In this document: in pieces, positions 9,001 through 15,000 of the stretch
Layout: every line of letters begins with the position of its first letter
Position numbering within the stretch: the stretch's first letter is position 1
Origin: Chlamydiia bacterium
Lineage (GTDB): Bacteria; Chlamydiota; Chlamydiia; Chlamydiales; RGXB01
Reading direction: 5' to 3'
Assembly: GCA_040382515.1 (NCBI GenBank)
Contig: JBEIFH010000011.1
Span: 1-49,264, forward strand
Length of the DNA: 49,264 bases
Made by a program: the position numbers

Positions 9001-12000
9001 CGACCTTTAAGGACTTGTCCGGGGACCATTGTGCTTACGGCAGTGGTATCATCGGCGTGCGTACCTCTGATGAAATTATTGAAAAGCTCGCGGTCGGAAG
9101 CGCTGAAATTCTCTTCGTCAAGAATTTTGCTCTCGTCTTGGATCCAGGGGCTATGTTGTTTAGTGGACATGTTAAAGGGTTCTCCTAGGGTTTTTACGTT
9201 TTGTTAAGAAGTATATCAAGGCGCTGTATTAAAAATCAACACATTTGCTACCCTTTAAAAGGTTTAGTATGCGCCCTAGAATCGTCCTTAAATTTGGGGG
9301 AAAATCCCTTAGCTCTGTGGATAAAATCCATGATATTAAAGAAATCATTATCCATTTTAAAAACAGTGGATTCGATGTCATTGCTGTTGTGAGCGCTATG
9401 GGAAATACAACAGATCAGCTTTTGAGTTTAGCGCAATCTATCTCAAAAGCCCCTCCAAAAAGGGAGCTGGATCTTCTTGTCTCTGTTGGAGAAAGAATTA
9501 GTATGACCCTATTGACCATTTCATTGGTCGATGCGGGTCACCAGGCGGTCTCATTTACAGGGAGCCAATCGGGTATCATAACTTCCACAGCCTTTACCGA
9601 TGCTAGAATCCTTGAGGTGCGGCCTTCCAGAATAGAGGCGGCCCTCGAAAGAGGTCATGTCGCTGTAGTTGCAGGTTTTCAAGGAGTTTCTATAGATAAA
9701 GAGGTCACAACACTTGGAAGGGGAGGGTCCGATACAACTGCGGTCGCGCTTTGCCATGCATTGAGAGCTTCAAAAGCCTGTTTTTTCAAAGATGTAGGTG
9801 CGCTTTACACAGTGAATCCCCATAGAGACTCCTCTGCTGTAGCGATCAATTTTATCGATTATGACGGAGCTTTAAGCCTTTTGGAAAACGAGGCTCGCCC
9901 TTTGCTCCATTTAAGGGCGCTAGCTTTGGCAAAAAAATACTTTGTTCCCCTTGAAATTTATTCCACGAGCGCCTCAAAAAAAATGTACATTCCTGGAACG
10001 GTGATTGTTTCAGAGTTACCAATGGACGCATCCTTGGCTACTATGGAAGATAGCGAAGCGCCTTTTGTGTAGAGTCACTTAATCCCTATACAAAGAATAA
10101 GGGTGCGCCCCTTTGAATAGACAAGCAGAATTTTTTTTGTCCCTTTTTTCCCTTAGGAGTACGAATTATTTTCAAAAAAAAACTAGAACTGCTATACGTG
10201 CTAGAAATTCCTCTGGCCTCTTGGATACAGCATGTCTAAAAATCCATCGGCAGATTAGAGGAAACAAAAATAAAGCGTTTTAAAAGCATGGCAAAACCCC
10301 ATCCTGGCTCCTCTTCTCCTAAGGTGTTGGATTTTTATCGCTCTACGAAGGAGCGAATCATGCAGCAAATTTTTTCTAATTGCGAATGCAGTAAAGAGTT
10401 TGTTGACCGGCCCGCGCTTTTGCGTTCAAAACTGCCTCTCTTCTATGTCGAAAGAGCTCAGGAACACCCTTTGGGTGTGAGTATGTATCTTTTATCTAAG
10501 GAGAGGGAAGGTCTATCCCATTACTTCTTTACCCAGTGCTCGACAGCTCTTTTGCCCGGTCATATCACCCCTTTGGAGCGGTTTTTCTCGTCAAATGTCA
10601 GGCTTGAAGGGTTTGATGGTGCTTTGACTCTTATTGAAGCGTATGTAGTATTCCAAACCCAAAACGCCTTTGTCCTTTTTAATGAAAATTTGGATCGTTT
10701 CATGGAGGAGGTGAGGCGAGGCTGCGAAAAACAGGATGTTTTGGAGCGTATTTTAGAAACAAAGCGGGGAGGGGCAAACCGGGTGTATCTTCTTTTGCAA
10801 GATCTTCTGGACCCTTTAAAAAACCGTTTTTCCTTCAGTTTCCATCTGATGGAAAAATTTTTAAGAAGGTTTTGGGTAGAGTTTAATGAGAGAATCGAGA
10901 GCGCTCCGCTTGAAAAAAAGTGGAAAAAATGGTTTGTAAGATACGTCTTGCTACAAAAGCAGATCCGCAACCTTGAAGAGGGACCTATAACTGAAAAAGA
11001 GCACAAAGTGCAGGTCTTTTTTATAGGGGCTAAGGCAGATAGAAAAACACTGGGACTTGCTCTATATCTTCCGCTGGCACCGAACGAAGTTTTTGAATTG
11101 AAGCATTTAAAAAAATCGTTGCAGTTGATCCATCCGTCTATAGATGTGGACGAATCCAGTTTTGTCCGTTTGCACCATGATTCCATCTTTCTTGTTGAGA
11201 TAAAGACCCACCTCGAACGCTTTGAGATTGAACGGGGTTTGAGATTCACACTTACCTCTTCGATTGAGCGGTACGTCCACCAGGTGTTTATGCCGCGCAA
11301 CGAGGAAGATGTGATGCGGCGGATTGTTACTTTGTGCAACGAAATCAGCTCTAAAGAGGATATTCCACAGGTTGCTATCCATTTTGAAAGACAGTATGAG
11401 AGTTATTTGAGCTACCTTGTTTTGATCGTTAAACCTTACGATACAACACCAATAGAAAGATTAACTGCGATTCGAAAGCAGGGGATCGGTGTTCACCTTG
11501 AGGCGACAAGGAGGTTTTACCAAAAGCTTGTAGAAATTGAAGCCTCAACAGTGCGTATCGATATAGATCTTAAGGGTTTTATACGAGCTGACCATTCTAT
11601 AGATTCGCTTAAAGTACGTGCCCATATCACCGATTTTTTAAAAAAAATATTCCCAAATTTTAGAGATTACAATGGGGGGATGATTTCTAAACAGATTGAT
11701 AATCTTAGGTTGTTTAAGGGCCTTTTGAAAGATCATGATGAAACGTGCCTGGAAAATTTCTTTCTCTCTTTACAGCCAGTAGAGATCCAGTACCTCGCCA
11801 AACTCGACCCTCTTTTAGAGATGTTCCATTTTTTTATGTCGGGATCAAAGCAACTTACGGGGGAGCACTTGATTAAAAAAGGGAACGACGGTGTCCTGAT
11901 TTTAGCCTCTCTGAAGATTGCGTCTAAAATTGACGCGGCGGCAAAAGCTTGCATCAAGACAAAATTTGAGTGGATTAGAGCCCATGTTTTGATTTGGGGT

Positions 12001-15000
12001 AAAAGTTTCCATTTATTTTATCTTTATCAGCCGCAACTTGAAACCATGCAAAAGTTTGACAAGATGATGAACGAAATTTTTCTTGAGCGGATAGATAGAG
12101 GTGTGATTACATAGACGAGATGAACAAAGTGAAGATATCTGCGTCGATTATTGGCGGAGACATGTGCTGTCTAGCTGACGAATTGAAAAAAGTGGAAGAA
12201 AGCGGTGCGGATATGCTGCATCTAGATGTCATGGACGGAAATTTTGTAGATAACATTACGTTTGGGCCCGACACCGTACTAGGTCTAAGATCACGATCAA
12301 AAATGTTTTTCGACGTGCATTTGATGATCTACCGGGTTTATGACTATGTGGAGCGTTTCAAGAAAGCGGGTGCCGACAGATTGACGTTTCAAGTGGAAGC
12401 CACGGAATACATCGATGACACGATTAAATTTATCAAGACTTGCAATATGCGGGTAGGTTTAGCGATCTCACCTGAGACAAATCCCGAGCTTTTACTTCCC
12501 CATTTGGCAAAAGTCGATCAGGTGATTGTTATGACTGTGCATCCTGGCTTTGCCGGTCAGAAGTTCATGAAAGAGATGCTAGATAGAGTCGAATTCCTAA
12601 AAACGATGAAAAAAAATCATCCCGAACTGAAATTTGAAATTTCTATAGATGGGGGTGTAGGCATCAACAACGCGAGGAAGTGCATCGACGCTGGTGCTGA
12701 CATTCTAGTATCCGCAAGTGCTTTATTTCAGAAAGGGCAATCTATGCGCGACATCGTCAAACAGCTACGGGGTGTATAAGTGAAACGAATTACCACTCTC
12801 GGCGGAGGCACAGGAAATTACGTTGTCTTGAGAGGCTTAAAGGAATACCCTGTAGATCTCACAGCGATCGTAACCATGTCCGACGATGGGGGTAGCACAG
12901 GTATTTTACGAGACGAACTTGGGGTCTTGCCTGCAGGTGATGTGCGTCAATGTATTGTGGCCCTTAGCGAATCCTCTGAATTGATGCGGAATTTGATGAA
13001 TTACCGTTTTGATGAGAGTTTTCTATCAGGGCACACATTCGGGAATATTTTCCTTTCGGCGCTCGAAAAAGTAACCGGAAGCTTTGAAACGGCTATTGAA
13101 GAGGTGAGTCGTGTGCTCAACATCAAAGGGAAGGTGGTTCCAGTAACGACACAGCACGTACGGCTCAAAATGATTCTCAACAACCGCAAAATACTGGAAA
13201 GCGAAAAAGAGATCTACCTGAATGATGAGATAGACCAAGGCTATAGCGGCTTCTTTTTAGATCCTTACCCAAAAGCCAATCCTGAGGCCATAAAGCGTAT
13301 ACAAGAGGCGGACGCGGTGATCATCGGGCCGGGAGGGCTCTACACGTCGGTAATTTCCAATTTGCTTGTAGACGGTGTTGTAGAGACGCTTAAAAGTTCT
13401 CGCGCGGTAAAAATATTCGTTGTCAATTTGATGAATAAAAAAGGGCAGACTACCGGCTTCAAGGTGAGCGATTACGTTCGTCAAGTTGAGCTCTACTTGG
13501 GTGAAGGGGTCATTGACTATATAGTTGTGAACTCCCAAACACCCCCAAAAGAGCTGATTGACCGCTATGCGGAAGAGGGGGATTTGGTGGAATGCGATCT
13601 TTTTGACGAGCGTGTTATACAAACCGCCCTACTTGGGCCTATAGACAAAGCAAACAAAAGAGATCTTTTAAAAAGAAATTTGATTCGCCACGACTCGGAC
13701 CGTTTAGCCCGTATTTTGATTCACATCATAGAAGAAGCTAAAAAGAATGCTAGTTCTGTTCGATCTTGACGACACACTAATTGAGACGACGGCAACAATC
13801 ATCGAACCAAGGTTGGATAGAGCTCTTGAACAAATGATAGGAGCCGGCCTCGAAATTTTCGACCGGGATGAGGCTCTAGAAACTTTGGAGCGGTTGAACC
13901 GAACCGCTACAAGCTCTACCGACGCTATCAAAGAATTTGTACATCTCTATGGGGGTGGTGCAAAGTTTATAGAAGTTGCGATCCAAAACATATCCGATCC
14001 GGAGCTAAAAGATATAAACCCAGAACCGGTGTTGGGCTCTGAAAAAATTCTTTACGACCTTAAAAGCTTAGCCAATCTTATTCTCGTTACAAGGGGTGAG
14101 GAGATTTTTCAGCTTGCTAAAGTGAAAAAATCTGGTCTTCCATATTCCCTATTTAGTAAAATCGAAGTCACCCGTTCTTCAAAGAAGGGGTGTTATGAAA
14201 ACATTTTGAAAGAATTCAAGATGCCACCGAATCGGGTGATTGTAGTAGCAGATCGGATAGATGCCGATCTAGTCCCGGCCAAGGAGCTGGGGATGATCAC
14301 TGTGCTTTATCGTGCTGCTCGCAATCGTTTTAGCATTTTGCCCGACTTATGTGTTGATTATGTGATTGAAGATATGGCTCAGCTATATCCGATAGTGGAG
14401 GAAAGATGTTAACCGTACTAGTGCAGCAACTCGTTCCCGGAACGACCATTCGCTTTGAGGGGAGAATCCTCTTATTGGAGCAGATCATTAAGGTAACCCT
14501 GCCTAAAGGACCCCCGTTTTTTAAAGCAACCCTTAAAGATCCCGTTACAAGCGAAATTTTTGAAAGGAATTTTAAGCCGGACCAGGAGATTGAAGAGGTA
14601 AAAATCTCTAAAAGAAGACTGGAATATCTTTATTTGGAAGGGAGTGAACATCTCTTTCTGGATATTGATAACCTGGAGCAGGTTTTGGTACCCCAAGAAA
14701 TTATCAAAGATAGAGCCAATTTTCTCAAAGAGGGGGTGGATGTTCGTGCCCTTTTTTATGGAGATACCGTTTTTTCAGTAGAGCTTCCCCAATTTTTAGA
14801 ACTTCTTGTCGTGAGCGTCAAGGATCAGGGGGGTGGCTTAGTCGGGGGTTCTAAAATTGCATCTCTTGAGACTAACGCCGAAGTTGAGGTTCCTATGTTC
14901 ATAGAGGTGGGGGATATTATCAAAGTCGATACAATACAGAATCTTTACATTCAGAGGGTCTAATGGATCTTAAAATAATTCAGGATTTGATTGATGTTCT

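What a model noticed while it worked through the whole genome (the two positions that open the first line are those of the whole stretch)
9269..12114. ACT-less aspartokinase paired with a stand-alone ACT-array protein
The aspartokinase g00738 is only the catalytic domain (267 aa, no ACT domains), and the next gene g00739 (584 aa, no family call) is a string of ACT-like domains resembling the regulatory arm of 180-kDa glutamate dehydrogenase. The pair is kept across chlamydial families, suggesting amino-acid sensing supplied in trans; a paralogue (g01169, C29:4490-6427) sits beside, and elsewhere is fused to, an OppA-type binding domain.
Evidence so far: g00738 aligns to residues 4-250 of 405-421-aa aspartokinases. 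In 15 of 15 loci where the g00739 orthologue lies near an aspartokinase, that enzyme is 223-283 aa and directly upstream (7 genus genomes, 8 other families; call 163). Family present in 17 of 17 genomes. Model pLDDT 78 with four beta/alpha units; Foldseek best hit large GDH 7jsr E 8e-8; VIA top hits ACT-like domains of GL3 (Z 9.3, rmsd 2.1/79), maize R, PurU, Rel, PGDH. Fusions of 928-1093+ aa with OppA matches in G008, G013, G014.
(Added by a program. Inside this text positions count along the whole contig: contig position 1 is position 1 of the stretch shown here. "Call 12" and the like, gene names such as g00115 and contig names such as C1 are that model's own, and its searches are not shown. 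The text may have been shortened before it was handed on; [...] marks where a part breaks off. The agent that wrote the report below was given it as the finding of a first reader that could run no searches.)

Follow-up and report, generated by a model that had tools for sequence, protein, structure and literature searches.

The report
Chlamydial aspartokinase with detachable ACT-like partner
Environmental chlamydiae carry an aspartate kinase that lacks its usual regulatory domains next to, and sometimes fused with, an undescribed protein built of four sensor-like domains; because that protein is also kept where the kinase has been lost, it is probably a broader metabolic regulator than a simple missing subunit.

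Summary
Observation confirmed, with one correction: the partner X is 608 aa (start 10288). The 267-aa kinase keeps its active-site residues and is this genome's only aspartokinase, feeding the dapB-dapA-asd-dapL operon in the same window. X folds as four ββαββα ACT-like units with helical spacers, collinear with the N-terminal arm of 180-kDa glutamate dehydrogenase (structure only; no sequence homology shown). Linkage is strong: X adjoins the short kinase in 71 of 77 near-complete genomes, and the two have fused at least three times independently, twice with the kinase replacing X's first domain. But neither needs the other: X stays under purifying selection in genomes with no aspartokinase, and the kinase persists without X. 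A paralogous clade lies beside or is fused to leaderless OppA domains, sharing X's invariant core. In the window's genus X has its own promoter-like element. Best reading: a facultative sensor/adaptor that docks the kinase through its N-terminal domain and has at least one other job. No paper found; this scan noted the family three times on other DNA.

The parts
9269..10072 (+). Short aspartokinase (267 aa): class II-like catalytic domain only, no ACT domains; the genome's only aspartokinase
10161..10206 (+). Conserved promoter-like element (A-tract followed by TG-C-TATA) between AK and X, specific to the window's genus; suggests X is transcribed independently here (inferred)
   Evidence: invariant block in 6 of 6 loci aligned; one other genome site, at 6 mismatches; not listed by the consensus scan
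10288..12114 (+). Protein X (608 aa): undescribed chlamydial family, four ACT-like units with helical spacers
10423..10728 (+). [quoted passage not shown]
10732..10980 (+). X helical motif HM1; with D2 matches HM2-ACT*3 of large GDH; decayed in this genus and in D1-less fusions
10993..11853 (+). X conserved core: D2, linker with FMPRNEE motif, D3, RDYNGG motif and helical motif HM2; invariant in AK-linked, AK-less and OppA-linked members
11857..12096 (+). X domain D4, ACT-like order of elements, poorly conserved
12120..13769 (+). rpe and a CofD/YvcK-family gene, usual downstream neighbours of X (context, looser link than AK)
33046..36449 (+). dapB-dapA-asd-dapL-like operon lacking lysC; the pathway the short AK feeds (dapA and asd by Pfam; dapB and dapL named from motifs and position, not searched)

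Best explanation
The short AK is the active lysC of the meso-diaminopimelate (peptidoglycan) pathway (inferred from invariant active-site residues and co-loss with asd). X is a cytoplasmic sensor/adaptor made of repeated helical-motif + ACT-like units of the large-GDH type (fold predicted). It associates with the kinase facultatively, probably through D1-HM1, and tunes or reports its activity (inferred), while its invariant D2-D3 core carries a second, AK-independent function or binds another partner, which is why X survives loss of the kinase and why paralogues were re-wired to a cytoplasmic OppA domain. The likeliest signals are meso-DAP/aspartate-family amino acids or cell-wall peptides (guess from pathway context).
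For: AK directly upstream of 84 of 93 stand-alone X versus rpe directly downstream of 52 of 90; AK kept without rpe 34 times, rpe without AK 5 times of 85. 64 of 77 pairs outside the genus overlap or lie within 10 nt by longest ORF. Six AK-X fusion clusters need three origins on the X tree; in two (P0409, also P0443 at 681 of 748 identities, and P0435) D1 is gone and HM1 has decayed while the core is intact. Family f35 has long AKs and no X in 8 of 8 and no X in 23 of 23. Branch-length residuals of X covary more with AK (0.45-0.63) than with rpe (0.05-0.38). AK active-site motifs invariant in 79 of 79; AK and asd both absent in 5 of 5 genomes G041-G045; no lysA or hom found in G000, MurE-type ligase present. 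AK-independent role: X in AK-less G054 vs G105 dN 0.12, dS about 2.5, like rpe; all domains score normally in AK-less members.
Against: No physical contact or ligand shown. D1-HM1 is conserved at normal level in AK-less genomes, so AK docking cannot be its only constraint. The D1-specific rate covariation with AK (0.59 vs 0.10 for the core) did not replicate without the window's genus. When the locus splits, AK can stay with rpsA and X go with rpe (G050, G117, G019). In this genus the genes are 141-215 nt apart with a promoter-like element between them and the AK evolves faster than X (63-68% vs 75-83% identity). Adjacent, translationally coupled genes can fuse without interacting, and one junction has a short local similarity that may have guided the deletion. 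Loci are related and were picked by similarity to the window protein.
Confidence: 0.45

Rival explanations
1. Dedicated regulatory subunit in trans: X simply replaces the lost ACT domains/beta subunit and gives the kinase end-product feedback.
For: Tight synteny and overlap, three fusions, ACT-like folds, joint absence from f35, which has a full-length AK; D1 loop carries an Arg (76%) and Phe-Phe pattern loosely like the DRPGLL motif quoted in PMC10175843.
Against: X retained under purifying selection with no AK in at least 8 genomes (G041-G045, G054, G093, G105); loss of AK beside X needs at least six separate events on the tree, counting losses and relocations; short AK retained with asd and no stand-alone X in G013, G018, G072, G108; conserved core shared with OppA fusions that have nothing to do with AK.
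Confidence: 0.2
2. Reverse direction, interchangeable inputs: the invariant D2-D3 core is an output module, and D1, the kinase domain (Asp/ATP state) and the cytoplasmic OppA domain (peptide) are alternative inputs that control it.
For: AK replaces D1 in two independent fusions; D1 is physically absent from at least four OppA fusions whose X match starts at residue 14-74; fused OppA domains have no N-terminal hydrophobic stretch or lipobox in 10 of 10; core residues invariant in all three contexts.
Against: No output partner or catalytic activity identified; core matches only ACT-like folds; four of six fusion clusters and the duplicated paralogues keep D1; conserved polar residues could be a dimer interface, as in large GDH (10.1101/2020.11.14.381715).
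Confidence: 0.2
3. No direct link: the AK is an unregulated stand-alone enzyme, like Vibrio natriegens LysC2, and sits next to X only because both belong to an ancestral rpsA | AK-X-rpe-yvcK-efp-accBC block.
For: ACT-less AK is active and feedback-insensitive in V. natriegens (PMC12925634); both genes are lost independently; the block is conserved as a whole; a short AK of the same clade occurs in Silvanigrella aquatica, whose X content I could not check.
Against: AK-X junction is far more stable than X-rpe; three independent fusions, two with parallel loss of D1 and decay of HM1; no X-rpe fusion among 34 longer homologues or the 120 listed.
Confidence: 0.15

Closest known systems
N-terminal arm of 180-kDa NAD-glutamate dehydrogenase (M. 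smegmatis, PDB 7jsr/7a1d/9hv0; ACT*1-3 and helical motifs)
   Same: Same order of elements in each unit and alternation with helical motifs; X 1-433 aligns collinearly to 7jsr_A 43-611 (Z 9.1, 353 aligned, rmsd 11.9), HM1-D2 to 463-611 (Z 9.0, rmsd 3.5/129), D3 to 500-610 (Z 8.8, rmsd 3.1/108); ESM features point to GDH N-terminal families at 0.76-0.88, lead level only.
   Different: X is a free protein with four units and no GDH catalytic domain; 7-13% identity; no GDH Pfam hit; no profile similarity to the chlamydial 115-kDa-type GDH N-terminus (probability 0.09%). Ligands of the GDH arm are themselves only proposed (passages).
Class II aspartokinase (Corynebacterium glutamicum alpha2beta2, PDB 3aaw) and class III (Synechocystis, 3l76)
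   Same: Catalytic domain is closest to these (E 2.5e-89 and 1.2e-85); class II uses a separate ACT-only beta subunit (PMC4142519 passages).
   Different: The chlamydial alpha chain has no ACT domains at all; the neighbour is a 530-700-aa protein of another ACT-like type from a separate gene; short AKs form their own clade (support 99) apart from 71 long AKs.
Vibrio natriegens LysC2 (ACT-less, feedback-insensitive aspartokinase)
   Same: Mono-functional AK reported to lack ACT domains and to be active (PMC12925634 passages).
   Different: [quoted passage not shown] Sequence relationship not tested.
Plant ACT-domain-repeat proteins (ACR11) and GlnD/bHLH ACT-like domains
   Same: Stand-alone arrays of ACT-like domains; ACR11 binds and controls an amino-acid enzyme (Fd-GOGAT) in trans (PMC4944146 abstract); same element order (PMC10175843 passages); D1 matches GL3 and maize R domains at Z 7.9 and 7.8.
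   Different: X has long helical spacers and its own invariant motifs; the DRPGLL motif is only loosely echoed in D1; no sequence homology tested positive; X is fused to AK or OppA in some lineages.

Membership tests
Aspartokinase (amino-acid kinase family) | AA_kinase domain closest to aspartokinases, with intact substrate and nucleotide motifs | tested here: met
   PF00696 E 3e-39; best NCBIfam PRK06635 E 2e-76, below whole-protein cut-offs because of length; K8, S42, T48, E75, D155 invariant in 79 of 79 (their catalytic roles are recalled). The window copy has G178A and D183N in the nucleotide loop.
Aspartokinase (amino-acid kinase family) | Enzymatic phosphorylation of aspartate | not testable with these tools
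   Indirect only: sole AK, co-lost with asd.
Class II aspartokinase alpha2beta2 | Two ACT domains on the alpha chain plus a two-ACT beta subunit | tested here: not met
   Chain ends at residue 267, about 17 residues after the catalytic domain; all 120 best homologues listed are 254-301 aa.
Canonical ACT domain | [quoted passage not shown] | tested here: not met
Large-GDH N-terminal arm (ACT*/HM repeat) | [quoted passage not shown] | tested here: met
   D4 has the order of elements but no match of its own above background
Large-GDH N-terminal arm (ACT*/HM repeat) | Sequence homology to GDH_ACT/GDH_HM families | tested here: inconclusive
   No Pfam hit, no PDB sequence hit, hhalign to chlamydial GDH N-terminus negative; ESM feature scores under 0.9; no profile-profile test against the 180-kDa arm itself.
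Large-GDH N-terminal arm (ACT*/HM repeat) | Attached to a GDH catalytic domain | tested here: not met
   Fusion partners seen are only PF00696 and PF00496; the genome's GDH is a separate 983-aa gene on C4.
GlnD/ACR-type ACT-like sensor | DRPGLL-type ligand loop between beta2 and alpha1 | tested here: inconclusive
   D1: Arg 76%, Pro 28%, Asn/Gly 63%, then Lys-Phe-Phe in 96 orthologues; not seen in D2-D4 by eye.
Obligate regulatory subunit of AK | Strict co-occurrence and co-loss with the catalytic subunit | tested here: not met
   X without AK in G041-G045, G054, G093, G105; AK without stand-alone X in G013, G018, G072, G108.
Obligate regulatory subunit of AK | Physical complex with AK | not testable with these tools

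The most novel reading that the evidence does not exclude
X is a chlamydia-specific signalling hub derived from a large-GDH-type arm: a conserved output core that is switched by interchangeable inputs (its own ACT-like D1, a moonlighting aspartokinase domain, or a leaderless cytoplasmic OppA domain reading peptides or cell-wall fragments), coupling diaminopimelate synthesis and peptide salvage from the host to an as yet unknown target.
Probability: 0.22. Interest if true: 0.82.

Novelty: new variant of a known kind. Interest (0 to 1): 0.62.

Why it matters
The family is near-universal in environmental chlamydiae (81 of 90 near-complete genomes), unannotated, and not found in the 23 small genomes of family f35, which use a conventional long aspartokinase. 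If it regulates the kinase it is a fourth way of building an allosteric aspartokinase; if the core is an output with swappable inputs it is a new kind of bacterial nutrient-signalling module. It also gives a soluble, stand-alone model for the poorly resolved sensory arm of large glutamate dehydrogenases, and the natural ACT-less kinase is a candidate feedback-free enzyme.

Tried and rejected
Complex prediction of AK with X: tool not available, no result. Sequence homology of X to the chlamydial GDH N-terminus: negative (one search found no third hit in G000). PDB sequence search with the X profile: only designed repeat proteins. D1-specific rate covariation with AK: seen on 34 branches of 22 loci, not replicated on 41 and 58 branches without the window's genus; dropped. 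The zero D1 score of the duplicated paralogues was an artefact of my trimming; untrimmed they score 0.91-1.10, so the pooled 'OppA-linked' column frequencies for D1 are not used. Rfam scan of 9000-12300: 0 matches, so no riboswitch found. RNA evidence: two runs with 5% of words, near-identical tables, contigs only: uninformative. Metagenome scan with the Silvanigrella AK returned 72 long and 8 cut AKs, none short and none beside X, so it did not answer whether X travelled with that gene. Plasmid search: 1 record, a Neochlamydia replicon carrying the whole rpsA-AK-X-rpe block. Mur-ligase survey: present in 90 of 90, no discrimination. Literature searches for this family or pair listed no paper describing it; the library lacks most subscription papers and I opened no supplements.
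Full report
1. Observation. The window holds rpsA-nusA-infB on the minus strand and, diverging from it, a 267-aa ORF (9269-10072), a 608-aa ORF (10288-12114, here X), rpe, a CofD/YvcK-family gene, a HAD hydrolase, efp and accB-accC (efp and accBC named from sequence, not searched). The first ORF is an amino-acid kinase domain whose best models are class II-type aspartokinases, matched only over their first ~245 positions; its closest solved relative is C. 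glutamicum AK (3aaw, E 2.5e-89). X has no Pfam, NCBIfam or PDB sequence match.

2. The kinase. It is the only aspartokinase in G000. A short AK was found in 37 of 41 genomes, and only 4 of these have a second, long one. The window also carries a dapB-dapA-asd-dapL-like operon without lysC. No lysA or homoserine dehydrogenase was found in G000 (92.65% complete), and a Mur ligase was, so meso-DAP for peptidoglycan is the likely sole product (inference). Active-site motifs are invariant in 79 of 79 complete AKs upstream of X; the window copy deviates at G178A and D183N. Short AKs form one clade (support 99) apart from 71 long AKs and include a 261-aa protein of Silvanigrella aquatica. An ACT-less AK is not new as such: V. 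natriegens LysC2 is reported to lack ACT domains and to be active and feedback-insensitive (PMC12925634, passages).

3. Fold of X. With 136 sequences the model reaches pLDDT 90.7 but pTM 0.63, so domains are reliable and their arrangement is not. [quoted passage not shown] That is the ACT* order described for the large GDH arm (10.1101/2020.11.14.381715, passages) and for GlnD/ACR/bHLH ACT-like domains (PMC10175843, passages). Foldseek ranks 7jsr first for the whole model (E 1.7e-7, TM 0.14) and for residues 120-502 alone (E 7e-4). VIA aligns residues 1-433 collinearly to 7jsr_A 43-611 (Z 9.1, 353 aligned, rmsd 11.9), HM1-D2 to 463-611 (Z 9.0, rmsd 3.5 over 129) and D3 to 500-610 (Z 8.8, rmsd 3.1 over 108, top of 48,161 chains). 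These Z values are only just above the tool's stated background of 7-8. ESM features also point to GDH N-terminal families, at lead level. Sequence homology was not shown. So X works like, and may descend from, a large-GDH arm; membership is not established.

4. Link to the kinase, evidence for. Among de-duplicated loci, a short AK lies directly upstream of 84 of 93 stand-alone X genes (one AK broken, some cut by locus ends), whereas rpe lies directly downstream of 52 of 90; of 85 with both sides visible, 34 keep AK without rpe and 5 rpe without AK. Outside the window's genus 64 of 77 pairs overlap or lie within 10 nt by longest ORF, an upper estimate. In 90 scored genomes (G000 plus 89 of at least 96% completeness; G074 not scored) 77 have a short AK and 71 of these have X beside it (counted by hand). 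Family f35 (1.0-1.3 Mb; by size and AK type probably Chlamydiaceae, my inference) has a 446-465-aa-frame AK and no X in 8 of 8, and no X in 23 of 23. New here: six clusters of natural AK-X fusion proteins (P0094, P0168-P0170; P0409, P0435) need three origins on the X tree. In P0409 (confirmed by P0443, 681 of 748 identical) and P0435 the complete kinase is joined to HM1, D1 is absent and HM1 has decayed (1.14 and 0.71 bits per column against 1.34-1.60 in the nearest unfused relatives) while the core is unchanged. Rate residuals of X covary more with AK than with rpe, but the reference genes are slow, so this is weak.

5. Evidence against a dedicated subunit. Five genomes in which X has no AK upstream have neither AK nor asd (G041-G045, completeness not given); in three of them rpsA abuts X directly. 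Of 5 AK-less genomes among the 90, three keep a stand-alone X (G054, G105, G093) and two only OppA fusions. Between G054 and G105 X is 80% identical with dN 0.12 and dS about 2.5 (saturated), like rpe, and every domain, D1 included, scores in the normal range. Conversely G018 (100% complete) has a short AK and asd but no X match, and G013, G072 and G108 have only OppA fusions; in G108 and G027 AK abuts rpe. In G019, G050 and G117 the locus broke between AK and X. In the window's genus the genes are 141-215 nt apart, a promoter-like block is conserved before X (10161-10206), HM1 has decayed and AK evolves faster than its neighbours: this copy looks like a loosened version of the pair.

6. The OppA branch. 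Thirteen of 14 OppA fusions, the internally duplicated 700-770-aa paralogues downstream of oppA genes and G000's C29 paralogue form one clade (support 94; one long-branch fusion falls elsewhere). The fused domains are full SBP_bac_5 domains, up to two per chain, with no N-terminal hydrophobic stretch or lipobox in 10 of 10, so probably cytoplasmic. D1 is absent from at least four fusions. The linker and D3 motifs (N314-E316, D334, Q337, R409, R420, R435-G440, E465; 584 numbering) are kept in all contexts. C. trachomatis Opp is reported to import cell-wall peptides (PMC9928106, passages), which makes a DAP/muropeptide theme plausible but untested; the best PDB match of the fused domain is a general OppA (8are).

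7. Mechanism. Shown: gene anatomy, synteny, three fusions, independent losses, purifying selection without AK, predicted ACT-like fold. Inferred: AK activity; AK-X contact through D1-HM1; a second function of the core; ligand. Best reading (0.45): facultative sensor/adaptor of the kinase with another role. Rivals: dedicated subunit (0.2), output hub with swappable inputs (0.2), neighbour only (0.15).

8. Known systems and novelty. The nearest precedents are the class II beta subunit (PMC4142519, passages), ACR11 acting on Fd-GOGAT in trans (PMC4944146, abstract and introduction) and the large-GDH arm (also 10.1101/2024.12.26.630402, passages). None describes this family; six searches listed no paper on it, within a library that lacks most subscription journals; supplements were not read. 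Three earlier notes of this scan describe the same family on other DNA; they are not independent evidence, and my reading was set down before seeing them. All named hits were chlamydial or carried the chlamydial gene order; I did not survey other phyla, and one ESM cluster lists Fermentibacterota as commonest taxon, unverified. Verdict: real, a new variant of a known kind, interest 0.62.

Noticed in passing
window 10161-10206 (+): Promoter-like block invariant in six loci of the genus between AK and X; nearly unique in the genome.
   Followed up: partly
window about 4750-5450 (-), inside infB: IF2 N-terminal region holds a long tandem repeat of an 11-residue Arg/Pro/Gly/Glu unit.
   Followed up: no
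L013, L015, L017, L019, L028, L092, L170 (downstream of X, opposite strand): A ~390-aa membrane protein that looks like a BrnQ-type branched-chain amino-acid carrier (name recalled from its N-terminal motif) converges on X in many Parachlamydiaceae-like loci.
   Followed up: no
P0372: A 261-aa ACT-less aspartokinase of Silvanigrella aquatica nests inside the chlamydial short-AK clade; possible transfer, X content unknown.
   Followed up: partly
G108 (C1, C3, C4, C14, C32, C48): Seven X-family matches in ~1000-aa frames in one genome that has deleted X from the AK locus: an expansion of presumed OppA fusions.
   Followed up: no
L117:3534-8594, L119:3480-8582: X fused to two tandem OppA domains (about 1,690-1,700 aa), followed by free oppA genes.
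   Followed up: partly
L257 (NZ_AP017978.1): A record deposited as a Neochlamydia plasmid carries infB, nusA, rpsA, AK, X, rpe, efp and accBC, i.e. core chromosomal genes.
   Followed up: no
G000:C4:30618-33569 (-): 983-aa large NAD-GDH immediately upstream of hrcA-grpE-dnaK-like genes; found in 30 of 41 genomes, not tracking X.
   Followed up: partly
G000:C29:2999-4339 (-): A secretin-like gene follows the OppA-linked paralogue here and in L090 and L112.
   Followed up: no
L071:2935-3770: Short AK in two pieces upstream of an intact X; broken gene or sequencing error.
   Followed up: no
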